A DNA stretch of 64,000 nt from an uncultured Ignavibacteria bacterium (GCA_964537215.1 CAZIBI010000011.1:4517-68516), one strand, 5' to 3'. Positions 1-9,097 are shown, counted from the first letter of the stretch. The notes: generated by a model from the sequence alone, not told the origin. Translations and numbers: made by a program.

Positions 1-333
1 CAGTTTAACGCCTATTTGCGCTCGATCGTCTTGAATACGGTCTTGAAAGCGGCTGAAAGCGAAGCAAGGCTGGAGCCAAGCTCGGAGTCTGTGTTGCCGG
101 AAGCCACCAACGGCGACGAGTTCAAGCGGTTTGCCGACAAGGACGTGGTCGAATTTGTCCTCGGTCGCCTAAACTCCGGATGCCGTGAGCTCCTGACGCT
201 CAAGTACTTGCAAGATTTGGACAATTCCGAAATCGCAGAGAAACTGGGACTGCGCGAGGGTACAGTTAGAGTTCGAATTCATCGTTGCACCGAGGGCGCA
301 AAAGAAGTATTGAGGGACAATGGACTTCTGTAA
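1..333 (+). CDS. ECF (sigma-70 family) RNA polymerase sigma factor, C-terminal part; gene continues upstream of the window
   Basis: The translation contains a sigma region 4 helix-turn-helix (...LTLKYLQDLDNSEIAEKLGLREGTVRVRIHRCTEGAKEVL). The reading frame is open back to position 1, and the start listed by the ORF finder at 16 is a TTG. An anti-sigma factor gene follows immediately. Confidence 0.7.
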   Translation, partial: QFNAYLRSIVLNTVLKAAESEARLEPSSESVLPEATNGDEFKRFADKDVVEFVLGRLNSGCRELLTLKYLQDLDNSEIAEKLGLREGTVRVRIHRCTEGAKEVLRDNGLL

Positions 334-382
334 CAATAGCATCGGAACTGGTACCGATATGTTGGAGGCGTGGAGATAGCTT

Positions 383-1231
383 ATGGCTTGCAACGATCCG
401 CGCTACCAATTCTTGCTGGCTGATGCCGCATTGGGCAAACTGTCGCCAGGCGAGATGTTCCAGCTTCAGAGCCACTTGCGCAGCTGTCAAACTTGCCGTG
501 AGAGCTTCAGGGCCGGCGCGATTTTGGCAGGAAAGGACCACGAAGATTTGACTAAGGAATTTGGCGGGCATCCATCAAACGACGAAATTACGCAATACTA
601 CTCGGAGCGCGCCGGCTTGGCGCCCGCCGTTTTGCAATCGATTGAATCGCATCTGGAACTGTGCGCCTTGTGCCGCGAAGAATTGCAATTGTTCGAGCAG
701 GTCGAGCAGGAAATGCTTGCGGCAGCTACGGCAGGACAGAAAACAGCCGGCAATGACGGCGGCTGGCAACACGCTAAGGCGATTGTCCTCCACCCGGTTT
801 TTGCTGCGGCGGTGCTTCTTGTCGTGGCGACGCCGCTGTATCTGATGTGGCGAGATCAAGCCAAACTTTCGGCGCCGATAGTTCCAGGCATACCAACTGC
901 GATAGAACTAAGAGAACCGAGCCGATCGGGCGGAAGCATACAGACTATCCTCAAGCGGCCCGATGGCAGCTATCTGCATCTCATTCTGCCCTATCCTTAT
1001 CAAGTCAGCACGCGTCACTATTTTGTGCAGCTTCACGGTGCCGAAGCAATGAGCGCGGAATCACCGCCGGTCTGGTTGAGATTTTCGCAAGCCGGTAAGA
1101 TCGATGCGTTGATTGGGGCCGCCAATCTCCCCGAAGGGCGGTATGAGCTTACAGTATTCGATGTCGGACGCGAGTTACTGCCCGATACTCTTACCACCTC
1201 ATTCATCTTTGATCTCAAAATTCGAGATTAG
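383..1231 (+). CDS. ZAS-type anti-sigma factor: two zf-HC2 motifs, one transmembrane helix and a periplasmic C-terminal domain
   Basis: There are two HxxxCxxC motifs (HLRSCQTC and HLELCALC). A hydrophobic helix (AIVLHPVFAAAVLLVVATPLYLMW) is followed by a roughly 130-aa C-terminal domain. The gene lies directly downstream of the ECF sigma gene. Confidence 0.6.
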   Translation: MACNDPRYQFLLADAALGKLSPGEMFQLQSHLRSCQTCRESFRAGAILAGKDHEDLTKEFGGHPSNDEITQYYSERAGLAPAVLQSIESHLELCALCREELQLFEQVEQEMLAAATAGQKTAGNDGGWQHAKAIVLHPVFAAAVLLVVATPLYLMWRDQAKLSAPIVPGIPTAIELREPSRSGGSIQTILKRPDGSYLHLILPYPYQVSTRHYFVQLHGAEAMSAESPPVWLRFSQAGKIDALIGAANLPEGRYELTVFDVGRELLPDTLTTSFIFDLKIRD

Positions 1232-1267
1232 CATTTTCAGCGCCAGCAAAGTTGTCGAACAACGCAA

Positions 1268-4200
1268 CTATCTTCCAACCACAATAAAGGCTCCCCACGA
1301 GTATGGATGCGGCGGCATATTTGCTTCGCGAAGTTCACGTAGCGTGGCAAGCTGCGCTTTTCGCACAGCCGATGCAAAACCTTCTTGAAGATTTGTGTAG
1401 AGTCGCTGCATTAGTCGTGCTGTTGATTGGTCGGGCACGTTCCAAAGCGTGCTTACGATGGTCTCGACTCCGGCCAGTTGGAATGCCCGGCGCAGACCAT
1501 AGACGCCCTCGCCATCGTTCACAGTCCCAAGACCCGACTCGCAAGCGGAGAGGACCACGCATTTCGTGCCATGTAAGTCCATCGCAGCGATTTCCTCGCC
1601 GGACAGAACTCCATCCTCCCCGACCAAGGCTGAATCCGCGGGCGCGAGCACTGCCGCTCCGGCTAATAGCAATCCAGATAGCAAAAGAGGATTTGCCGTC
1701 GTGACTTCTTCAAGAGCTTTTGGAAAACAATCATGTGAGAGAAAGTAGGCATGCGTTGCCAGGTGAATAATCTCGTTTCCGCTCGCCAGCCGTTTGAAAT
1801 TCTCCTCGGAAGCTGCGTCACCTACGAGAATATATACCGGCTGCGAATGCGCGGCTCGCCATATTCGAGCGGCGCTTTTTACCTCGCTGCGTGAGGCGAC
1901 CAATGGCGTCAATGATTCCCTCGGAATTCGACAATTTGCCAGTATGCCGCGCGCTACACTATTTTTATTAGAACCCGGTGCATATGAGGCAATCTCCGGA
2001 TTCGTGCTGGCGAAACGTTTCGACAGATCAGCAGTGAAATTCGGGTCGCCGAGCGCCAGCAATCCCGATTGGCGATTTGCAGGGGCAACATCTCGATTGA
2101 GATCGCGAATGCTGTTCAGGTAGGAAAATTGATATTGTTCGATCAGAAACGAATTCGTTGAAGTCGGGAGTGATCCAAACGAAAGCGAATTCAGCGCGCC
2201 GTCGGGAATGACAAACACCTGTCCCGAATCGGGCATGAACTTGCTCAAGGGCTGCCACACGCTGGCAGCTATTTTTTGACCGACCGCGAGGTAAACCAAT
2301 AGCGAATTTGAGTCAGCATCGCCGCCGGTTTCCGACATTGCGCTCATCTGCAAACCGACCCGTCCGATGGCGTCTTCGATTGGCTCTGCCGCGCCCAAGT
2401 TGATCGCCCGCAAAGATCCTCTGTTCGCGATGAACGCTGCATATTGCGATACTCTGCGAGTTGCTGAATAATATTTGACAAACTCAATGAGCGGCGAATT
2501 TTCGCGCAGTAAATTTATCGTTTTATCTTCGCTTAGAATTAGGGTGCCGGGGTCGTCGCCAATCTCGTATCCCAGATGCACCAGCGATTCTTCCAAGAAC
2601 AGTTTTCGAGCGGCAAGGCGCTTGAGTCGACGGTCGAATTTTGCAAAAGAGGAGTCCGCATCGTTTTCAATTTGCGCTCGCGCCAATTGAAGTGAAACAT
2701 CCCGCAACGAATCAAGCAATGGAGACACTCGTTTGTTATTCGAATTCATCAGGTGGGCGCGGTGCTCCAGCACAGATTCCGACACGATCGCCCTCCCGGA
2801 AAGAATCACGGCTGCAAACTCGTCGACAGCGACCGATTTGAGATCGATTCCGGATCTTTCGGGCTGCCGTCGCTGATCGTCATCGGCAAAGAGCGAAGAA
2901 ATGAATTTGTCGCGCAGTTTGTTAATTTCACCGGCAAAACGAGCCGCCTTCAATTCCGGCAATACCTGCACAGCATCCTGAAATCCTGCAAGAGCAATTT
3001 GGTAGGCTCTGGCAAAAGACCGCTGCGCTTCTTTTACTCGATTGCTCCGCAGCTGCAATTCGCCATAGCTGGATAGCAATTCACTCATTCGTGTGCTCTT
3101 GGTTATTTCAACTGATTCGGCAATCGCGATTGCGCGTTGATAAACTGTGTCCGATTGAACAAGATCGCCGCGATCGCGGAGATATTCGGCATGTTCGACC
3201 AAAGGTCGAATTAGGCGGAAGTTGCTCTCGCCATCCCGGCGGTTAACAATGTCTATTACGAGGCGCACCAGACTGTCGGCCTTGTCCAATTGACCTTCGG
3301 TCTTGTCGATTTCTGCGATTGTCATCAGCGCATCACTGTCGAGACTGTCGCCGCGAGCCCCAAGGATGGCAAGCGCCTTGTTCGCTTCAACATGTGCCAG
3401 CGGCAGTTTGCGTTGCTTGATATGCAGTTTGGCTAAGTCGAGATAACCGAATGCGACCTCCGGGTGGTCCGCACCCAGAAATTTGCGTTTGACTCGTAGA
3501 ACCCGATCCAGCATCTCTTCAGCATCGTCGCTTCGCCCCCACTCATCATATAGCACGGCAAGATTCTGAAGAATGCTCACCGTCGCGGCATCATTGGCGC
3601 CAAGTACAGTTTCACGAATGCCAAGCGCCCGTCGCCAATAGGTTTCCGCCTCGGCGGTCCTTCCCTGATCGAAGCAGACTTTACCCAGAGAATTGAAGCT
3701 TGAAGCGATATCCGGATGGTCCGGCGGCAGAGCCTTTCTGCGGATTTCCAGCGCTACGTTGTAAAGGGATTCGGCGCGCGCAAATTGTCCCATCTGGCGA
3801 TAGAGACCGGCAAGGTTTGACGTCAAGGAAGCGACCTCCTGATGCCCTTCGCCCTGGGTTTGCTTTCTCAATTTTATGCCAAGTGTAATCAGTTCTATGG
3901 CCCGCGAGTACTCGCCTTCGGAAGCAGCGACGCCGCCCAGCCGATCAATACTTCCTTGGCATTCGATATGCTCCAATGGTAAAGCAGCCAAGTTGATTTT
4001 GTACGCTTCGTTCCAATACTGAATCGCCCTCGCGCGATCACCACGTCGTACGTAGTAGTCGCCCAGCCGATTGAGAACATAGCCGACACTGGCATCCGCA
4101 GTTCCCAACCTGGTTCGCGCGATTTGCAACGCCTCCTCTCCGAGTTTGATGGCGGAATCCTGCTCGGCAAACCGACTCTGGACATTTGTAAGAAGAAATT

Positions 4201-4870
4201 TGGAGGCACCCTCGGCAAGATCCATCAGCGCGATGACAACAACCTTGGCATCTCCCCTTTGATTCGCCCGCCACTCTTGGGCGATTTGGGCATCGATGCG
4301 CCAGTTATCTTTGAAACGAAGTAGTCTGACATAGACTCCAACCAACTCGTGCAGATAGGTGAGGCGATTGACCAAAGATGCGTCTACTGAAGTGTCTGAT
4401 AGCGCAAGATTCTCCAGAGAGTCTGCACGCCGTTCGTCGCCTTGCTCCTCTGCCATAATCATCTGGCGCCAGGCGATTGCACGACGAAGCGCAACATTCG
4501 TTGGATGAATTTTCGCCGCGAATGCGGCTGCTGCCGACCAAGACGAGTCGGCTTGGGCGACGGAACTGTCCCGCATGTGATAATCGCCGAGACAGATGAG
4601 TATTGCGGCTCGCGCGCTATCAGCATCCGGCGCTTTCGGATTGACCAATGCATAGGCTTCCCACGCCAGTTGCTTAGCAGAATCGCTCGGCCATATTGCT
4701 CGCTGGCGGGCAAAGGAAATGTCGCACGACAAGCGCTCCGCCAGCGCGAGGCGCGACACCCAATCATTTTGCTCTGCGAGCGAAATAGCTGTAGATAGCA
4801 GAACCGTGATTAGTATGGCCAGACTGCGGGCCAAAACTCCTCCCAGTTTTATTGGTCGGTCAAAGATCAC
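1268..4870 (-). CDS. Secreted or exported TPR-repeat protein with C-terminal CHAT (caspase-like, clan CD) protease domain
   Basis: The N-terminus looks like a signal peptide or anchor (RSLAILITVLLSTAISLA). A long TPR-like helical repeat region follows. The C-terminus has CHAT hallmarks (HLATHAYF..., ...VVLSACESG...). The gene converges on the anti-sigma factor gene. Confidence 0.65.
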   Translation of the reverse strand: MIFDRPIKLGGVLARSLAILITVLLSTAISLAEQNDWVSRLALAERLSCDISFARQRAIWPSDSAKQLAWEAYALVNPKAPDADSARAAILICLGDYHMRDSSVAQADSSWSAAAAFAAKIHPTNVALRRAIAWRQMIMAEEQGDERRADSLENLALSDTSVDASLVNRLTYLHELVGVYVRLLRFKDNWRIDAQIAQEWRANQRGDAKVVVIALMDLAEGASKFLLTNVQSRFAEQDSAIKLGEEALQIARTRLGTADASVGYVLNRLGDYYVRRGDRARAIQYWNEAYKINLAALPLEHIECQGSIDRLGGVAASEGEYSRAIELITLGIKLRKQTQGEGHQEVASLTSNLAGLYRQMGQFARAESLYNVALEIRRKALPPDHPDIASSFNSLGKVCFDQGRTAEAETYWRRALGIRETVLGANDAATVSILQNLAVLYDEWGRSDDAEEMLDRVLRVKRKFLGADHPEVAFGYLDLAKLHIKQRKLPLAHVEANKALAILGARGDSLDSDALMTIAEIDKTEGQLDKADSLVRLVIDIVNRRDGESNFRLIRPLVEHAEYLRDRGDLVQSDTVYQRAIAIAESVEITKSTRMSELLSSYGELQLRSNRVKEAQRSFARAYQIALAGFQDAVQVLPELKAARFAGEINKLRDKFISSLFADDDQRRQPERSGIDLKSVAVDEFAAVILSGRAIVSESVLEHRAHLMNSNNKRVSPLLDSLRDVSLQLARAQIENDADSSFAKFDRRLKRLAARKLFLEESLVHLGYEIGDDPGTLILSEDKTINLLRENSPLIEFVKYYSATRRVSQYAAFIANRGSLRAINLGAAEPIEDAIGRVGLQMSAMSETGGDADSNSLLVYLAVGQKIAASVWQPLSKFMPDSGQVFVIPDGALNSLSFGSLPTSTNSFLIEQYQFSYLNSIRDLNRDVAPANRQSGLLALGDPNFTADLSKRFASTNPEIASYAPGSNKNSVARGILANCRIPRESLTPLVASRSEVKSAARIWRAAHSQPVYILVGDAASEENFKRLASGNEIIHLATHAYFLSHDCFPKALEEVTTANPLLLSGLLLAGAAVLAPADSALVGEDGVLSGEEIAAMDLHGTKCVVLSACESGLGTVNDGEGVYGLRRAFQLAGVETIVSTLWNVPDQSTARLMQRLYTNLQEGFASAVRKAQLATLRELREANMPPHPYSWGAFIVVGR

Positions 4871-5200
4871 GACTGTCGAATATGGTACTAATATAACCCC
4901 TTTTATCGATTAAGTCAAGCTCTGTTGGCGCGAGCCTGCAGTCCTTACGACCGCCCCCTGCGAATTGCGCTCTGGAGAAGCGTCATTTTGAAAGAGGTCT
5001 TTGCAGTGAGCTGCAATGGTGATTCTGGGAAGCTCGATAATGTCCATGAAAGAAGAAGGAATCAATAGTGCCTGGAAGCGACATGTCCGCACGACTTTCT
5101 TGCGACCCGTTCAGTTGGAAGTGTGGAGTTCTTCAGTTGGGTCCACCCGGATAGCTACGTTCCGATGTCAGTCACAATACCGAGGCACAAAAATGGCACA

Positions 5201-5222
5201 CCCGGAGTCTTCGGACTCCGGG
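5201..5222 (-). terminator. Stable hairpin (9-bp stem, UUCG/CGAA tetraloop) downstream of the tRNA remnant; possible terminator
   Basis: The plus-strand sequence is cccggagtc-ttcg-gactccggg. On the minus strand it is followed, after a 6-nt spacer, by AUUUUUG. It sits where a tRNA gene terminator would be expected. Confidence 0.35.
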
Positions 5223-5261
5223 CGGGCTAGTGAAGATCATGATAACTCGTTGGCTAGTAAA

Positions 5262-5306
5262 TGCCGGAGGGGGGAATCGAACCCCCACGGGTTTATGGCC
5301 CGCCGG
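5262..5306 (-). other. tRNA 3'-terminal fragment (T arm plus acceptor 3' strand); putative prophage att core or remnant
   Basis: The minus-strand sequence reads GGGGGUUCGAUUCCCCC-CUCCGGC-A, a canonical T stem-loop (GTPsiC-type UUCGAUU) followed by a 7-nt acceptor 3' strand and discriminator. No complementary 5' acceptor strand (G[CU][CU]GG[AG]G) and no D or anticodon arm occur within 150 nt upstream. Instead there is an unrelated perfect hairpin, GACAGC-AAA-GCUGUC. Confidence 0.5.
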
Positions 5307-5454
5307 ATTTTGAGTCGCTCGGACAGCTTTGCTGTCATAGAGTTACGAATCGTGTAACTGCCGCAGTGTCACTCCAAGAAATTCTTGTCAATAATAAGCT
5401 ATGATCGGTCAACCTCATACTACATTTTTAGGCTCGAATTAGGAAGGAGTAAAA

Positions 5455-6312
5455 ATGTGGGATGAATTGATCAGGTGGATTGGTGCTTTACTTGTCGGTG
5501 GAGCAGGGGTAGGAACATCTCTTGCCGAAACTCGGTATATGGGTGAACTCAACATTAAGGGTCGGCTCTTTCTGTTGAGCACGATTGTTGGCCTGCTAAT
5601 GATCACTGCAGGCGAGGTTTACAATCATTTTGTTGAAGACCGCCTTCAACGTCAGAATCAAATTGAAAATAAGTTCAGTACTCTTAAGGAATTTCCAATC
5701 AGAAATTTGGTGTTTGAATTTCATGTGGACAGCAAGAAGCTTAGCGACTTCCCGACTTTTAGCGCCAACTTCAATATAGAGGCTTTTACACCCGCTAACA
5801 TGAAGTTATTCGCACCCGTCGTACATATGCTCGGCGGGGTCTGCCATGATAGAGATTCGGGATGGGTCACGGGTGGCCCCCCTACTTATCCATTTGAAAT
5901 AGAACACAGCGATACTACACTGAGGTTCATAATTGAAAATCCCATGCTATATGCTGGTCCTAAGAATCCAAAACTTCGAATATCAAAAATATCTGACCTT
6001 GCGGGCCTTGATCTCCAGGTCTTCTTGGTGAGAACAGGGTGGACTGGAGATTGGCGAGATGCAACTTTTTCTCCAAGCGCCAATCCACTTACCGAATGTG
6101 AAGTGTTTGCTGAGGCCACCTTTGGAAAGCAACTTGTTTTGAAGTTGATTCCGGTGTATGAGCGTGATGATTCGAGCTGTGTCGCTGTGTACCTCCCCGC
6201 CACCGAAGCTCTAAAGCTAAGTACCGTGTCGGACTTTCGTCGCGCAGGGTGGAAATATAATCACTTCACGGTTGATGTCGCTGAAATGAAGAACTATTTG
6301 GAAGTACAATAA
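5455..6312 (+). CDS. Membrane protein (two N-terminal transmembrane helices plus a roughly 200-aa soluble domain); cargo or moron gene at the prophage end
   Basis: It is the only substantial plus-strand gene in the prophage. It is visibly more AT-rich than its surroundings and has a strong RBS (AGGAAGGAG, 7 nt before the ATG). The two hydrophobic segments are IRWIGALLVGGAGVGTSLA and LFLLSTIVGLLMITAG. Its own terminator follows. Confidence 0.6.
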   Translation: MWDELIRWIGALLVGGAGVGTSLAETRYMGELNIKGRLFLLSTIVGLLMITAGEVYNHFVEDRLQRQNQIENKFSTLKEFPIRNLVFEFHVDSKKLSDFPTFSANFNIEAFTPANMKLFAPVVHMLGGVCHDRDSGWVTGGPPTYPFEIEHSDTTLRFIIENPMLYAGPKNPKLRISKISDLAGLDLQVFLVRTGWTGDWRDATFSPSANPLTECEVFAEATFGKQLVLKLIPVYERDDSSCVAVYLPATEALKLSTVSDFRRAGWKYNHFTVDVAEMKNYLEVQ

Positions 6313-6313
6313 A

Positions 6314-6348
6314 CCCCGTCAACTTTAGTCGACGGGGTATGTCGCTTT
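6314..6348 (+). terminator. Rho-independent terminator of the plus-strand cargo gene
   Basis: The sequence is ccccgtc-aactttagtc-gacgggg followed by the T-rich stretch tatgtcgcttt, placed 2 nt after the stop codon. Confidence 0.5.
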
Positions 6349-6375
6349 AGGGGACCGACCGGCATCGAGAGAGGG

Positions 6376-6435
6376 GGCAGGAAACTCCCGATACCACACG
6401 GTCGCTCCCCAGCCGTAAGATAGCAGTTTCCTGCC
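6376..6435. repeat. 11-bp perfect inverted repeat (ggcaggaaact / agtttcctgcc) enclosing a 38-nt loop, in the gap between convergent terminators
   Basis: Direct inspection of the sequence. Confidence 0.5.
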
Positions 6436-6458
6436 GTAGTCAAGCGATTTCTCAACAC

Positions 6459-6487
6459 AAAAAAAACCCGGCCGTTTCCGACCGGGG
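6459..6487 (-). terminator. Rho-independent terminator ending the minus-strand late or lysis operon
   Basis: On the minus strand the sequence reads CCCGGUCG-GAAA-CGGCCGGG followed by eight U residues (plus strand aaaaaaaa-cccggccg-tttc-cgaccggg). It lies about 40 nt after the stop of the 6528..6962 gene. Confidence 0.6.
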
Positions 6488-6527
6488 TCACCCTAAAGAA
6501 GAAGCACACCGCCGATGCGGAGTTCTG

Positions 6528-6962
6528 TTAGGCCGCCTTGACCAAGGTCGGTGCTGCCACCTTCTTGAGCCAGTCGGCGCCTTTGAATTTGTTCAGCCAG
6601 GCAATCGCGGCGTCGACGCCCTTGCCGATGATCCAGCCCTCGATCGATTCCGGGACAAACGGAATGTCAATGACGCGGTTGATGATCTCGACCAAAGCGT
6701 CGCGCTTCTCTTTGCTGATCAGCACGGCACCGGTGTCCTTGGCGATCTTCTCGATCAGCCAACCGGCAGTGCGCGAGATCTCTGCGACGGCGAGCATGTT
6801 GCCGGTGACGGCTTTGTCGAAGCCGACGATCTTGCCGGTGTCGTCGAGCTCGAACGGATTCCACCCTTCGACGCCGACCATGCCGACCAACTCCTTGATC
6901 TTGTCGACGTCGAGATATTTGACTAATTCCGTTTTCAGGAATGTCGCATCAATAGATGACAT
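6528..6962 (-). CDS. Hypothetical phage protein (144 aa), last gene of the late operon
   Basis: An ORF with a protein-like composition, positioned downstream of the lysis genes. Confidence 0.4.
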   Translation of the reverse strand: MSSIDATFLKTELVKYLDVDKIKELVGMVGVEGWNPFELDDTGKIVGFDKAVTGNMLAVAEISRTAGWLIEKIAKDTGAVLISKEKRDALVEIINRVIDIPFVPESIEGWIIGKGVDAAIAWLNKFKGADWLKKVAAPTLVKAA

Positions 6963-7022
6963 AGTTATCTCCTGTGATTTTGATTATGGATTTGAGGTGA
7001 GTGAACGAAAGTGTTGCGAGGT

Positions 7023-7505
7023 TTACGCGCCGCGCCGCGGAGAGCCGCCCCAGATGAAATTGCCGACCATGTAGATGATGATCGCTGCCACTGCCCCCTG
7101 CAGACCGAACCGTATTGAATACCAAAACCCGAAACCGGTCGGTGAGATGAAGGCCAGGAATATGCCGATCACGAACGGCAATGCTATTGACCGATTGTCG
7201 ACAAAGAAGAGCTCGCCGTTCTTCTTGACCTTGCGCTTCGTAAATTCCGTCAACACGAAGATCATGCCGACAAGCACGGCGAACAGAAACGGGTTTGCGC
7301 CAAAGTACCGCGCCAGTGACTCGATCGTGAGAATTTTGTCGAAGTCGAACGGCGACGGTGTGACGATAGTCGTATCCACAACAGTCGAGTCGAAGCTGCT
7401 CGCGGTTACGGTTCCGACTGCAGGCACGGCATTAGTCGGAATGGTCTGCTGAGCCCAGAGAGTGACTGGCATGATCAGCAGTGCCAGAACGAAAAGGATT
7501 CTCAT
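7023..7505 (-). CDS. Holin-like or lysis-associated membrane protein (signal peptide plus three transmembrane segments)
   Basis: The product begins MRILFVLALLIMPVTLWAQQ and has three further hydrophobic helices. It lies immediately downstream of the endolysin gene. The start is placed at the internal Met, because the 7023..7640 ORF would overlap the endolysin by 115 nt. Confidence 0.4.
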   Translation of the reverse strand: MRILFVLALLIMPVTLWAQQTIPTNAVPAVGTVTASSFDSTVVDTTIVTPSPFDFDKILTIESLARYFGANPFLFAVLVGMIFVLTEFTKRKVKKNGELFFVDNRSIALPFVIGIFLAFISPTGFGFWYSIRFGLQGAVAAIIIYMVGNFIWGGSPRRGA

Positions 7506-7525
7506 GTGTTTCAAATTCCCTCCAA

Positions 7526-8089
7526 TCATAGCACCGTCCGCGACAACCAGCCGTGGAGGTACCTGCGAAACTGTGAATTGTTGATTGCTAACTGCGTATA
7601 GAAGGCCCGCCGCAAATCCACCTGGCTCTCGGCGATCCAAGCGTAGTCTGACTTTGCCGCGGTCAATGCAGCAATCGTCTGATCGCCCATGACACCATCG
7701 ATCTTGACATCGATGCGCGACTGCGGACTTTTGTTGTGGACGTTTAACGCTGACTGCAAAAATATGACAGCCCGTTGGGCGCCGATATTCACAGCGGCGT
7801 CGAAAAGTTCGTTGGCTATTCGCTGGTGGATAATCTGGTTGCAGCGCAGTCGCTCCCAGATGTCGAGATAGAATGTCTCAACCTCGTCATTGATATCCGG
7901 GTCCAGCTCGAGCATGCGCGGGAAGCCGGGCCCCTTCTTCATCTCGTCGACCTTCACCCACCCCGGCCATTGTGGGTTGCGCTTGCGAGCAATGCCGCGA
8001 AACGTCTCGCCGCCTGGATCGGCGGGATCGATTGAATAGCCGCCCTCGTGCTTGGAAGTTTGCTCCCAAGCGTATTTGAATTCTGCCAT
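7526..8089 (-). CDS. Endolysin, glycoside hydrolase family 108 lysozyme domain with C-terminal peptidoglycan-binding domain
   Basis: The N-terminus carries the GH108 signature HEGGYSIDPADPGGETFRGI. The C-terminal part resembles PG_binding_3. Confidence 0.75.
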   Translation of the reverse strand: MAEFKYAWEQTSKHEGGYSIDPADPGGETFRGIARKRNPQWPGWVKVDEMKKGPGFPRMLELDPDINDEVETFYLDIWERLRCNQIIHQRIANELFDAAVNIGAQRAVIFLQSALNVHNKSPQSRIDVKIDGVMGDQTIAALTAAKSDYAWIAESQVDLRRAFYTQLAINNSQFRRYLHGWLSRTVL

Positions 8090-8092
8090 GGC

Positions 8093-9097
8093 TTAAGTCG
8101 TGGTACCGGCGACCTGCAACTCGTAGAAGCTATTTTGCGCCGCGTCGCCGGCGTTGAGTGTTAGCTCGCACCAAATGCCGATAGCATCAGCGGGCTCGAG
8201 GTTTCCGGTCGGCACGTTCTTGTTGCTCGAGTCAAAGGTTCCTGAAGGCGCAACCTTTCGGTTATTGCCGGAACCGTTCGTACCCGAGGCGTTGAGCGAG
8301 CCTTCGAGCATGAATGCTTCTTTGGTCGAAATACCCGACACGACTTCGCTGACAACTGCGTTGGAGAGCGCCAGCGTCGCGTGGGTATTCTTGGCGAAGA
8401 TCTTGTCGTAGCTCTTGACGTTCGAGCCACCGGTCGCGGCCGCGGCTTCGTCGAAGTGAATGCGACGGCACTGCATGATTTCGGTCGGTGTCTTCTCGAA
8501 AAACATTCCCGGAGCCACTTCAAATCCGGATCCGTTGGCCGGAGCCGTGCCCCAATCGTTGCGGACATAAGCACGCTTCAACGTGCCGTTGTACGCGACA
8601 ATCTCGTTAAGCCCGTTTGCACCGGTTCCGGAAGTTACGCGGACGACCTGGCCCTTGTAGATATCGTCTGTGGCCGAAGCGCCGGCGTCGAGATCGATGT
8701 AGGGCTGGCCATCGGCGTCAACACCGCCGCCGGTTGCCGTGTTCGATCGTGTGGCCGTATTGGACATCAGCGCAATATGGCCAGCGCAAGTGGCGGACTT
8801 GACCGCCTTCAACAGGCGCGCAAACGTCTTCGGCGTACCGGCCTGGACTGCCGTTGTTCCGTTCAGGTTGATCGTTTCGGTGATCTTCGCTCCGGAAGAC
8901 GAGCGGCCGGTGATCGCAATGTTCTGTGTCGTGTCGCCGGCGTTTGCCGAAACGGCCTTGAGCTGCACAGCCGAGCTCAATTCGCCCCAGACGACTTTCT
9001 TGGCGGTGTCAATCGCGCCGCCGATTTGCTGCACTGTGTCATCGTCCGGCATGGTAGCAGAACCATAGAACCGGATGTCGCGCTTAATAACGCTCAT
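8093..9097 (-). CDS. Putative tail fibre or receptor-binding-associated structural protein (334 aa)
   Basis: It lies between the giant fibre gene and the lysis genes. Its G/T/S/N-rich composition is typical of fibre or adhesin proteins. Confidence 0.35.
   Translation of the reverse strand: MSVIKRDIRFYGSATMPDDDTVQQIGGAIDTAKKVVWGELSSAVQLKAVSANAGDTTQNIAITGRSSSGAKITETINLNGTTAVQAGTPKTFARLLKAVKSATCAGHIALMSNTATRSNTATGGGVDADGQPYIDLDAGASATDDIYKGQVVRVTSGTGANGLNEIVAYNGTLKRAYVRNDWGTAPANGSGFEVAPGMFFEKTPTEIMQCRRIHFDEAAAATGGSNVKSYDKIFAKNTHATLALSNAVVSEVVSGISTKEAFMLEGSLNASGTNGSGNNRKVAPSGTFDSSNKNVPTGNLEPADAIGIWCELTLNAGDAAQNSFYELQVAGTTT

What the first reader, a model, noticed from the sequence alone, without database searches (positions are those of the whole stretch)
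1..4870. Host locus: ECF sigma factor, double-ZAS anti-sigma factor and an exported TPR-CHAT protease, a Craspase-like logic without CRISPR
The anti-sigma factor carries two HxxxCxxC zinc fingers and a single transmembrane helix with a periplasmic tail. The convergent neighbour is a 1200-aa TPR-CHAT caspase-like protease with an N-terminal signal or anchor sequence. In type III-E CRISPR systems a TPR-CHAT protease (Csx29) cleaves an anti-sigma-like protein (Csx30) to release an RpoE-family ECF sigma. Here the same three functional classes are clustered, but with the protease placed extracytoplasmically. That suggests a CHAT protease acting as site-1 protease on the periplasmic domain of the anti-sigma factor.
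Basis: inference. Interest (0 to 1): 0.55.

Follow-up and report, generated by a model that had tools for sequence, protein, structure and literature searches.

The report
Sigma, anti-sigma and exported caspase-like protease
A bacterial gene switch (sigma factor plus membrane anti-sigma factor) sits next to a secreted caspase-like protease in many distantly related genomes, which suggests that the protease cuts the anti-sigma factor outside the cytoplasm to turn the switch on.

Summary
Window 1-4870 holds the 3' end of an ECF sigma gene, a 282-aa anti-sigma factor and a convergent 1200-aa TPR-CHAT protein. The anti-sigma factor has two invariant HxxxCxxC sites, one membrane helix and a 126-aa outer domain. 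The TPR-CHAT protein has a signal-peptide-like N-terminus and an intact His1040/Cys1110 dyad.

The three genes are functionally linked. The same trio occurs in all 7 orthologous loci (CHAT 39-61% identical, CHAT-side flanks different). It also occurs in 8 of 8 distant CHAT homologues that I picked blind to context, in convergent, divergent and co-directional layouts. One locus reached from the anti-sigma side has it too.

The outer domain of the anti-sigma factor defines an undescribed family (395 cluster representatives). It has one invariant Arg in a loop about 24 residues beyond the membrane helix. I propose this as the cleavage site, by inference only.

The closest known system is not Craspase but DdvA-DdvS of Myxococcus. 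There the periplasmic TPR-CHAT is fused to the anti-sigma factor and was proposed, without proof, to act as site-1 protease. This locus is a split version of that. No cleavage has been shown. I rate the site-1 protease reading at about 0.45 and the functional association at about 0.9.

The parts
1..333 (+). 3' end of the ECF sigma factor gene (last 110 aa, region 4; the gene is cut by the window start)
   Evidence: Sigma70_r4_2 E 8e-12. Full-length 181-aa orthologues pass the TIGR02937 ECF cut-off.
383..1231 (+). Anti-sigma factor, 282 aa: tandem zinc-binding anti-sigma domains, one membrane helix, Ig-like outer domain
   Evidence: zf-HC2 above cut-off. Alignment A1. AlphaFold model with 4+3 helices, a membrane helix and a 7-strand sandwich.
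389..496 (+). First zinc site: C3...H31-x3-C35-x2-C38 (CHCC type)
   Evidence: Invariant in A1. H31/C35/C38 are invariant and C3 is >=90% conserved in 47 diverse family members. Codons verified.
569..673 (+). Second zinc site: H63...H90-x3-C94-x2-C97 (HHCC type)
   Evidence: Invariant in A1. Weak hits to the ChrR and RsrA models at aa 63-118 and 82-108. Codons verified.
782..850 (+). Single transmembrane helix (aa 134-156, IVLHPVFAAAVLLVVATPLYLMW)
   Evidence: Hydropathy maximum. Helix 138-163 in the model.
923..928 (+). Invariant Arg181-Ser182 in the loop E-L-R-E-P-S-R-S; candidate scissile bond (inference)
   Evidence: R181 is one of only 6 invariant columns in 47 diverse members. Family motif Q-x-[ILV]-x-L-x-P-x-R-[SAGT], with R a median of 24 aa after the membrane helix. 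The loop at 180-184 has pLDDT <50.
941..1222 (+). Outer (periplasmic) 7-strand beta-sandwich domain, aa 187-280; no Pfam family
   Evidence: Model. Only generic Ig-like fold hits. 395 cluster representatives in the exhaustive search. No Pfam match in 47 members.
1268..4870 (-). Exported TPR-CHAT caspase-like protease gene, 1200 aa, convergent with the anti-sigma gene (36-nt gap)
   Evidence: Pfam CHAT E 9e-64 plus TPR families. Model pLDDT 79.7. Foldseek top hits are Csx29, separase and DdvA.
4775..4870 (-). Signal-peptide-like N-terminus (aa 1-32, ...LAILITVLLSTAISLA|EQ); alternative start TTG at 4834-4832
   Evidence: Sequence. All orthologues, and 71 of 79 distant homologues, have the same feature.
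2891..4165 (-). TPR superhelix (about aa 236-660)
   Evidence: TPR_12, TPR_10 and other Pfam hits. Paired helices 233-660 at pLDDT around 90.
1274..2287 (-). CHAT protease domain (aa 862-1199) with catalytic His1040 (1751-1753) and Cys1110 (1541-1543)
   Evidence: Pfam. Invariant dyad. Codons verified.
4890..4918 (-). Sigma-70-type promoter-like site TTGACT-17-TATATT just upstream of the protease gene
   Evidence: Best match (10 of 12) in the 5.5-kb region. Aligned equivalents in L001 and L009. This is a consensus match only.

Best explanation
This is an envelope signalling module made of an ECF sigma factor, its single-pass zinc-binding anti-sigma factor and a Sec-exported soluble TPR-CHAT (caspase-like) protease.

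Proposed mechanism:
1. At rest the anti-sigma factor holds the sigma factor at the inner face of the membrane.
2. The protease is made from its own promoter and waits inactive in the periplasm.
3. A protein signal bound by the TPR superhelix activates the CHAT domain.
4. The protease cuts the anti-sigma factor in the exposed loop just outside the membrane, at or next to the invariant Arg181-Ser182. This is site-1 cleavage.
5. The short stub then becomes a substrate for an RseP-type intramembrane protease.
6. The sigma factor is freed and transcribes its targets. These are probably the large secreted surface proteins encoded divergently from the sigma gene in related loci.

Shown: the gene anatomy, the conservation of the trio, the export signal, the intact dyad and the invariant Arg loop.
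Inferred: that the protease acts on the anti-sigma factor, the cut site, the involvement of a site-2 protease, the signal and the regulon.
For: Conserved neighbourhood:
- The trio occurs in all 7 orthologous loci, with anti-sigma 46-96% and CHAT 39-61% identical. The flanks upstream of the protease gene differ.
It appears in three gene orders: convergent (L014, L097, P0114), divergent (L012, L096) and co-directional (L010, L015, L016).
- It occurs in L017, L019 and L024 from a metagenome sample.
- It occurs in L098/L099, reached independently from the anti-sigma side.
- CHAT loci outside this clade (domain identity <39%) have no sigma gene at the two nearest gene positions, 0 of 196.

Protease:
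- The dyad is invariant.
- The fold is like Csx29, separase and DdvA.
- 71 of 79 homologues look exported.
- The gene has a sigma-70-like promoter of its own. It does not carry the TGTTACA motif that is conserved upstream of the sigma gene.

Anti-sigma factor:
- The outer domain family has 395 cluster representatives, and 91 of 96 short members have an N-terminal zinc motif.
- R181 is invariant in 47 members at 14-39% identity. Only 6 columns are invariant in total.
- It lies a median of 24 residues after the membrane helix, in a low-confidence loop.
- From my own knowledge, DegS cuts RseA at a similar distance from the membrane.
- Separases cut after Arg (PMC11506125).

Precedent:
- DdvA is a zinc-binding anti-sigma factor fused to a periplasmic TPR-CHAT. 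It was proposed to be its own site-1 protease, and removing the domain exposes it to RseP.
Against: - No cleavage has been shown for this family or for DdvA. DdvA dyad mutants had no phenotype under the conditions tested.
- An invariant Arg may be structural, or a binding determinant, rather than a scissile site.
- CHAT proteases differ in specificity. Csx29 cuts after Met or Leu.
- In the co-directional loci (L010, L015, L016) the partner's outer domain is not homologous to this family (hhalign probability 2.7%). Recognition therefore cannot depend on that fold alone.
- Some close CHAT relatives have no sigma gene within the flanks available (L020, L022).
- The convergent layout means the protease gene is not in the sigma operon.
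- The promoter call is a consensus match. It may not apply if this lineage uses Bacteroidota-type promoters.
- The presence of a site-2 protease could not be checked.
Confidence: 0.45

Rival explanations
1. The protease is a periplasmic partner of the anti-sigma factor but does not cut it. Its real substrates are other envelope proteins, for example the large secreted surface proteins encoded next door. The Ig-like domain of the anti-sigma factor, with its invariant Arg, binds the protease as a sensor or pseudosubstrate inhibitor, as securin does for separase. Sigma activity would then report the state of the protease.
For: - Large secreted proteins are recurrent neighbours. They carry Peptidase_S74, Dockerin, PKD/CARDB, Laminin_G, gingipain-like C25 or Por_Secre_tail domains.
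- The conserved adjacency and the invariant Arg fit binding as well as cleavage.
- The fold search of the outer domain returned Ig-like cysteine-protease inhibitors (chagasin, EhICP2) among many generic Ig hits, at noise level.
Against: - The neighbouring secreted proteins share no common domain that would mark a common substrate.
- The Arg sits in a flexible loop at the distance from the membrane that is typical of site-1 cuts.
- The fold hits are weak (E >= 2e-3) and the model confidence is low (pLDDT 62).
Confidence: 0.25
2. The protease is an output of the system, not an input. The sigma factor drives or co-regulates its expression, and the protease acts on unrelated targets after induction.
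For: - In L010, L015, L016, L017 and L024 the protease gene lies on the same strand as the sigma and anti-sigma genes and may be co-transcribed with them.
- Published ECF neighbourhood analyses note that regulators and targets cannot be told apart from synteny alone (PMC7826278).
Against: - In the window and most loci the gene is convergent or divergent.
- It has its own sigma-70-like promoter.
- It lacks the motif conserved upstream of the sigma gene.
- This reading does not explain the invariant Arg loop in the anti-sigma outer domain.
Confidence: 0.15
3. The adjacency is inherited gene order with no functional meaning. The protease is one of many exported TPR-CHAT proteins of this lineage and has nothing to do with the sigma and anti-sigma pair.
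For: - All 7 orthologous loci come from one class (Ignavibacteria MAGs).
- TPR-CHAT genes are numerous in these genomes. Several paralogues occur per MAG (L002 with L016; L007 with L015).
Against: - The flanks upstream of the protease gene differ between orthologous loci.
- The pairing recurs with rearranged gene order and with non-orthologous sigma and anti-sigma pairs in other lineages, 8 of 8 blind picks.
- The background frequency is about 1% sigma hits per gene, and 0 of 196 at the nearest two positions outside the clade.
Confidence: 0.05

Closest known systems
[quoted passage not shown]
   Same: - An ECF sigma factor held by a single-pass anti-sigma factor whose N-terminal domain is a CHCC-type zinc site.
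- A TPR-CHAT caspase-like module with a His-Cys dyad on the periplasmic side.
- The published (unproven) model has the CHAT module make the site-1 cut in the linker just outside the membrane, followed by RseP.
- The modelled protease matches the DdvA structure 8rot by fold (Foldseek E 2e-13) and weakly by profile (E 5e-3).
   Different: - Here the protease is a separate, signal-peptide-bearing protein from its own convergent gene, not a domain of the anti-sigma factor.
- The anti-sigma factor carries two tandem zinc domains and a small Ig-like outer domain with an invariant Arg.
- The hosts are Ignavibacteria and other lineages, whereas the fused type was reported only in Myxococcota and one Comamonas.
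- No CBASS or CRISPR genes are nearby. The neighbours are secreted surface proteins.
Type III-E CRISPR Craspase: Cas7-11/gRAMP, Csx29 (TPR-CHAT), Csx30, CASP-sigma (PMC10028731)
   Same: - A TPR-CHAT protease genetically linked to an ECF-type sigma factor and its inhibitor.
- Csx29 is the best structural match of the model (8eey_B, E 1e-14) and the best profile match in the PDB (E 1.5e-5).
- Proteolysis of the inhibitor is thought to relieve inhibition of the sigma factor.
   Different: - Craspase is cytoplasmic, RNA-guided and bound to Cas7-11. This locus has no cas genes or array, and the protease is exported.
- Csx30 is not a zinc-binding membrane anti-sigma factor. The anti-sigma factor here gave no significant match to any PDB chain (best E 0.83, an unrelated methyltransferase).
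- Csx29 cuts after Met or Leu.
DegS-RseA-RseP regulated intramembrane proteolysis of E. coli sigma-E
   Same: - A single-pass anti-sigma factor with a periplasmic domain.
- A soluble or anchored periplasmic protease makes the first cut about 30 residues outside the membrane, and an intramembrane protease then acts (my own knowledge).
- The candidate site here lies at a comparable distance from the membrane.
   Different: - The site-1 enzyme would be a caspase-like cysteine protease with a TPR sensor, not a PDZ serine protease.
- The anti-sigma factor is zinc-binding and has an unrelated outer domain.
ECF54 group (Actinobacteria), with CHAT, carboxypeptidase and subtilase neighbours (PMC8999054, PMC7826278)
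   Same: A published case in which a CHAT-domain gene is a conserved neighbour of an ECF sigma gene and proteolytic control has been proposed.
   Different: ECF54 has no anti-sigma factor and is found in Actinobacteria. Here a classical anti-sigma factor is always present and the hosts are different.

Membership tests
CHAT domain, caspase-like clan CD peptidases (PF12770) | Profile match above the curated cut-off | tested here: met
   216 bits against a cut-off of 24, E 8.8e-64, aa 862-1199.
CHAT domain, caspase-like clan CD peptidases (PF12770) | Catalytic His-Cys dyad | tested here: met
   H1040 and C1110 are invariant in A2, A3 and A6. Codons checked.
CHAT domain, caspase-like clan CD peptidases (PF12770) | TPR-CHAT fold as in solved structures | tested here: met
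   Model pLDDT 79.7. Foldseek top hits are Csx29, separase and DdvA, E 1e-14 to 2e-13.
CHAT domain, caspase-like clan CD peptidases (PF12770) | Proteolytic activity | not testable with these tools
   Needs an enzyme assay.
Class I zinc-binding anti-sigma factor (zf-HC2, PF13490) | Profile match and HxxxCxxC motif at the N-terminus | tested here: met
   26.6 bits against 22.2. The motif is present twice and invariant.
Class I zinc-binding anti-sigma factor (zf-HC2, PF13490) | Encoded directly downstream of an ECF sigma gene | tested here: met
   49-nt gap (334-382) in the window. The same order is seen in all related loci.
Class I zinc-binding anti-sigma factor (zf-HC2, PF13490) | Binds zinc and its sigma partner | not testable with these tools
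   Biochemical property.
ECF (group IV) sigma factor | Regions 2 and 4 only, about 180 aa | tested here: met
   Region 4 is in the window. The 181-aa orthologue passes TIGR02937. Region 2 of the window's own gene lies outside the window.
DdvA-type TPR-CHAT anti-sigma factor | Zinc-binding domain, membrane helix and TPR-CHAT in one polypeptide | tested here: not met
   The anti-sigma factor is 282 aa with an Ig-like tail. TPR-CHAT is a separate convergent gene.
DdvA-type TPR-CHAT anti-sigma factor | CHCC-type zinc site and single membrane helix | tested here: met
   C3/H31/C35/C38 and one helix.
DdvA-type TPR-CHAT anti-sigma factor | CHAT active site lacking the three-helix motif, dimeric arrangement | not tested
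   The model coordinates were not compared residue by residue with 8rot.
Type III-E Craspase module | Association with Cas7-11/gRAMP and a CRISPR array | tested here: not met
   No Cas family appears among the Pfam hits of any neighbouring gene in the loci examined. PADLOC gave only a generic TPR hit.
Type III-E Craspase module | Cytoplasmic TPR-CHAT | tested here: not met
   Signal-peptide-like N-terminus in the window protein and in 71 of 79 homologues. No dedicated signal-peptide predictor was available.
Type III-E Craspase module | Csx30-type inhibitor | tested here: not met
   The anti-sigma factor has no significant sequence match to any PDB chain, and the PDB includes Csx30 of 8eey. Best hit E 0.83, unrelated.
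Regulated intramembrane proteolysis of anti-sigma factors | Site-2 (RseP-type) protease in the same genome | not testable with these tools
   Only a 64-kb window and short loci were available.

The most novel reading that the evidence does not exclude
A widespread, undescribed class of ECF signalling. The anti-sigma side has hundreds of sequence clusters. The modules examined come from Ignavibacteria MAGs, one 'Ca. Deferrimicrobium' MAG and MAGs labelled only 'bacterium'. In this class a free periplasmic caspase-like TPR-CHAT protease would be the signal-activated site-1 protease. It would cut a dedicated Ig-like anti-sigma domain after an invariant Arg and so switch on genes for large secreted surface proteins. 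Because enzyme and substrate are separate proteins, the system would allow a direct test of the CHAT-as-site-1-protease idea, which is still unproven for DdvA.
Probability: 0.4. Interest if true: 0.75.

Novelty: new variant of a known kind. Interest (0 to 1): 0.6.

Why it matters
- For most ECF sigma groups the protease that starts anti-sigma degradation is unknown. A caspase-like enzyme in that role has only been proposed, for DdvA, where it cannot easily be tested: enzyme and substrate are one chain and the signal is unknown.
- This module separates the two. It offers a predicted cut site (R181|S182) and many natural variants, so a simple in vitro cleavage assay could settle the question.
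- It also defines a new periplasmic anti-sigma domain family.
- It links bacterial TPR-CHAT proteases, best known from CRISPR Craspase and eukaryotic separase, to ordinary envelope signalling and possibly to the control of secreted surface proteins.

Tried and rejected
- A metagenome scan with the anti-sigma alignment A1 found nothing, and a viral-contig scan also found nothing. A11 was too diverse to scan with.
- The word-index search with the outer-domain alignment A7 returned only 3 proteins. The exhaustive search was needed.
- The long multi-repeat proteins match only a short GxYxL Ig-like stretch, so I disregarded them.
- TGTTACA at the end of the sigma gene is a coding coincidence at the stop codon, not a second regulatory site. 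I could not derive a convincing ECF -35/-10 pair from 5 upstream regions.
- There is no significant hairpin in the 36-nt gap between the convergent genes (z = -1.4).
- The 197-aa neighbours in L002, L019 and L098 are not homologous to each other.
- The outer domain of the L010-type partner is not homologous to the main family.
- PADLOC gave no defence-system match. Rfam and ARAGORN found no RNA gene in 1-8000.
- Cluster look-up gave no taxon names.
- The fold search of the anti-sigma model gave only generic Ig-like matches on a low-confidence model.
- I considered arguing for Arg specificity from the Glu that follows the catalytic Cys, and dropped the idea. Csx29 has the same Glu but cuts after Met or Leu.

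Full report
**What is in the window**

The ORF list and Pfam scan confirm three genes.

- Positions 1-333(+) encode the last 110 residues of a sigma-70-family protein (Sigma70_r4_2, E 8e-12). The gene is cut by the window start. Its 181-aa orthologues pass the NCBIfam ECF superfamily cut-off.
- Forty-nine bases downstream, 383-1231(+) encodes a 282-aa protein that matches zf-HC2 above the Pfam cut-off.
- Thirty-six bases after its stop, and convergent, 1268-4870(-) encodes a 1200-aa protein with many TPR hits and a CHAT domain (E 9e-64, aa 862-1199).
- To the right of the protease gene lie a sigma-70-like promoter match (4918-4890), a strong terminator-like hairpin on the minus strand (5224-5199) and a tRNA-like T-arm plus acceptor strand (5262-5286, minus strand, unique in the window). 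A phage endolysin follows at 7526-8089.

**The anti-sigma factor**

- In six homologues (46-96% identity) both HxxxCxxC motifs are invariant. So are an upstream Cys3 and His63, placed 28 and 27 residues before the respective His. These are therefore two tandem zinc-binding anti-sigma domains, of CHCC and HHCC type.
- The second domain also hits the ChrR and RsrA anti-sigma models weakly.
- The AlphaFold model is only moderately confident (pLDDT 62). It shows 4+3 helices, a membrane helix at 138-163, a coil, and a seven-stranded beta-sandwich at 187-280.
- The sandwich has no Pfam family and only generic Ig-like structural neighbours.

**The protease**

- Four orthologues are 59-61% identical over the full length, more conserved than the anti-sigma factor. 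All begin with a short charged stretch and a hydrophobic segment.
- Of 79 full-length distant homologues, 71 have the same feature. It is followed by a conserved mature N-terminus (Q-T-W-K-E-L-L..A-D-S-L). The other 8 look like truncated gene calls.
- No signal-peptide predictor was available, so export is an inference from sequence.
- The AlphaFold model is good from residue 240 onward (pLDDT 79.7, pTM 0.76). Its best PDB matches are Csx29 of Craspase, human separase and DdvA (E 1e-14 to 2e-13).
- By sequence profile the CHAT domain is only distantly related to Csx29 (E 1.5e-5) and DdvA (E 5e-3).
- The first roughly 230 mature residues are specific to the orthologous group and are modelled with low confidence.

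**Is the neighbourhood conserved?**

- The anti-sigma family found by the word-index search is small, 5 proteins. Every contig with enough flank shows sigma, then anti-sigma, then the convergent TPR-CHAT gene.
- A scan of one genome per GTDB species with the protease alignment found five loci, all in MAGs labelled Ignavibacteria. Two have only 39-42% CHAT identity. All five have the same layout.
- The flank upstream of the protease gene differs among loci: a type II secretion ATPase, a kinase, unrelated ORFs, and here a prophage.
- The flank on the sigma side usually holds a divergently transcribed gene for a large secreted protein with Peptidase_S74, Dockerin or SBBP domains.

I then looked at distant protease homologues (about 31-36% identity over the C-terminal 580 residues). 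I chose them only because their contigs were long. All eight have a sigma and single-pass partner next to the protease gene.

- Convergent: L014, L097 and the P0114 contig.
- Divergent: L012 and L096.
- Co-directional: L010, L015 and L016.

In the co-directional loci the partners are a divergent roughly 204-aa sigma-like protein (hhalign probability 83%, E 9e-6 against the ECF alignment) and a 310-340-aa single-pass protein without a zinc motif.

- A metagenome sample of 79 CHAT loci added three more cases among the closest relatives: L017, L019 and L024.
- That sample also provides a control. Loci with CHAT-domain identity below 39% have no sigma hit at the two nearest gene positions (0 of 196). 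They have 5 hits farther out, about 1% of genes.
- Finally, a 231-aa family member found from the anti-sigma side (P0148) sits in the same convergent trio (L098/L099).
- The association is therefore specific to one clade of exported TPR-CHAT proteins. It has survived gene-order rearrangement and partner replacement, which argues for a functional link.

**A new anti-sigma outer domain with one invariant Arg**

- An exhaustive profile search with the outer domain found 395 cluster representatives.
- Of the 96 short proteins among the best 150, 91 have an N-terminal H/CxxxCxxC motif, 86 have a clear membrane helix, and 9 have the tandem zinc architecture.
- They share the motif Q-x-[ILV]-x-L-x-P-x-R-[SAGT]. 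Leu is present in 95 of 96. Arg is present in 86 of 96 in its alignment column. In 11 sequences an Arg occupies the next, otherwise gapped, column, which looks like a local alignment shift. Arg is therefore close to invariant.
- The Arg lies a median of 24 residues beyond the membrane helix.
- In a full-length alignment of 47 diverse members (14-39% identity to the window protein) only six columns are invariant. They are L20, the zinc ligands H31, C35 and C38, then R181 and G252.
- In the model R181 lies in a loop with pLDDT below 50, between the membrane helix and the sandwich.
- In the window's subgroup the context is E-x-x-R|S, which recalls the separase ExxR site quoted in PMC11506125. The acidic P4 residue is not general in the family.

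**How it most likely works**

- The best-supported reading is that the exported TPR-CHAT protease is the signal-activated site-1 protease of this anti-sigma family. It would cut at or near R181-S182, after which an RseP-type protease and cytoplasmic proteases release the sigma factor.
- Shown: anatomy, conserved association, export signal, intact dyad and the invariant exposed Arg.
- Inferred: the enzyme-substrate relation, the cut site, the site-2 step, the signal (probably a protein bound by the TPR superhelix) and the regulon (probably the divergent secreted-protein genes).
- Weak support for the protease acting as an input rather than an output comes from its own sigma-70-like promoter. 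This is the best match in 5.5 kb, with aligned equivalents in L001 and L009. It also lacks the TGTTACA motif that is invariant upstream of the sigma gene in five loci.
- Evidence against: nothing has been cleaved. DdvA dyad mutants were silent under the conditions tested. CHAT specificities vary. The co-directional partners have a non-homologous outer domain. L020 and L022 lack a sigma gene in the flanks available.
- I put the site-1 protease model at 0.45, a non-cleaving partner or other-substrate model at 0.25, an output model at 0.15 and coincidence at 0.05.

**Comparison with known systems**

Membership fails. No cas genes are present, the protease is exported, and the inhibitor is a classical zinc-binding membrane anti-sigma factor rather than Csx30.
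- The closest known system is DdvA-DdvS of Myxococcus xanthus. It is a CHCC zinc-binding single-pass anti-sigma factor whose periplasmic part is itself a TPR-CHAT. It was proposed to clip its own linker in trans before RseP acts (PMC11506125).
- That fused type was reported only from Myxococcota and one Comamonas. The present module is a split version with a different outer domain and different hosts, so it is not a member of the DdvA family either.
- ECF54 of Actinobacteria also has CHAT neighbours but no anti-sigma factor.
- Five full-text searches found no paper that describes this split module. The supplementary group descriptions of the ECF classification were not available, so a brief earlier mention cannot be excluded.

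**Novelty and value**

- I classify this as a new variant of a known kind.
- It would interest specialists for three reasons. It gives the CHAT-as-site-1-protease idea a testable two-protein form with a predicted scissile bond. It defines an undescribed anti-sigma outer domain family. And it suggests that caspase-like proteases take part in ordinary envelope signalling in the Ignavibacteria MAGs and the few other uncultured lineages where I saw the module.

**Limits**

- All related loci come from MAGs or metagenomes.
- Only one context was obtained from the anti-sigma side outside the window's own subgroup.
- No complex prediction, signal-peptide predictor or whole genome was available.

Noticed in passing
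window 5199-5300: On the minus strand there is a tRNA-like T arm plus acceptor strand (GGGGGTTCGATTCCCCC-CTCCGGC-A, 5262-5286). A strong terminator-like hairpin follows it (5224-5199). ARAGORN and Rfam call no tRNA here, and the 25-mer is unique in the window. It looks like the displaced 3' end of a tRNA gene left at a prophage attachment site. The intact copy would lie beyond the window.
   Followed up: partly
window 5455-9097 and onward: Phage genes begin here. 7526-8089(-) is an endolysin (PHROG 315, E 5e-31). The neighbouring ORFs (5455-6312, 6528-6962, 7023-7640, 8093-9097) have no PHROG match. The rest of the 64-kb window was not examined.
   Followed up: partly
window 4832-4870: The protease ORF begins at GTG 4870. 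An in-frame TTG at 4834-4832, preceded by GGGAGGAG (4844-4837), would give M-A-R-S-L-A-I-L..., which matches the short N-termini of the orthologues better. Either start keeps the signal-like segment.
   Followed up: partly
window 383-700; L012 4368-5255; L096 4346-5227; L097 8655-9512; L033 1804-3147: Tandem anti-sigma domains recur. Both zinc sites are intact in the window group, L097 and L033. In L012 and L096 the first repeat has lost its ligands and only the second keeps HxxxCxxC. About 9 of 96 family representatives have two motifs. I found no description of tandem anti-sigma domains, and their role is unexplained.
   Followed up: partly
L001 4266, L002 9188, L005 13200, L007 13164, L009 13165: An invariant TGTTACA, followed 11-13 nt later by TTTTG or TTTTC, lies about 200 nt upstream of the sigma start codon. 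The intergenic region is otherwise poorly conserved and is shared with the divergent secreted-protein gene. It could be a promoter or an operator. The equivalent region lies outside the window.
   Followed up: partly
L010 940-8910; L015 4039-9018; L016 397-4868; L024 156-2670: There is a second type of partner pair. It consists of a roughly 204-aa (241 aa in L024) very divergent sigma-like protein with no Pfam hit, and a 310-340-aa (truncated by the contig end in L024) single-pass protein without a zinc motif, on the same strand as a TPR-CHAT gene. L015 and L016 come from the same MAGs as L007 and L002, so one genome carries several paralogous modules. These partners also have a T/G-R-D/S/G motif shortly after the membrane helix, but their outer domain is not homologous to the main family.
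   Followed up: partly
L001 1008-4048; L014 10487-15033; L097 10464-13823; L098 5947-8406; L016 5548-10868: Genes for large secreted or surface proteins recur beside the module, often divergent from the sigma gene. Their domains include Peptidase_S74 with Dockerin, PKD/CARDB, FlgD_ig, Laminin_G, gingipain-like Peptidase_C25 and SBBP, and many have Por_Secre_tail. They are candidate targets of the sigma factor or substrates of the protease. The corresponding side of the window's locus is cut off.
   Followed up: no
window 4165-4774 (protease aa 33-235): The window's orthologous group has about 230 extra N-terminal residues that the roughly 970-aa homologues lack. The region is helical, conserved within the group and modelled at low confidence. 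Function unknown.
   Followed up: no
window 1232-1267 and equivalents in related loci: The convergent anti-sigma and protease genes are packed very tightly, 2-38 nt between stop codons in all convergent loci. The window has no significant terminator hairpin in this gap, so the two transcripts may overlap at their 3' ends.
   Followed up: partly
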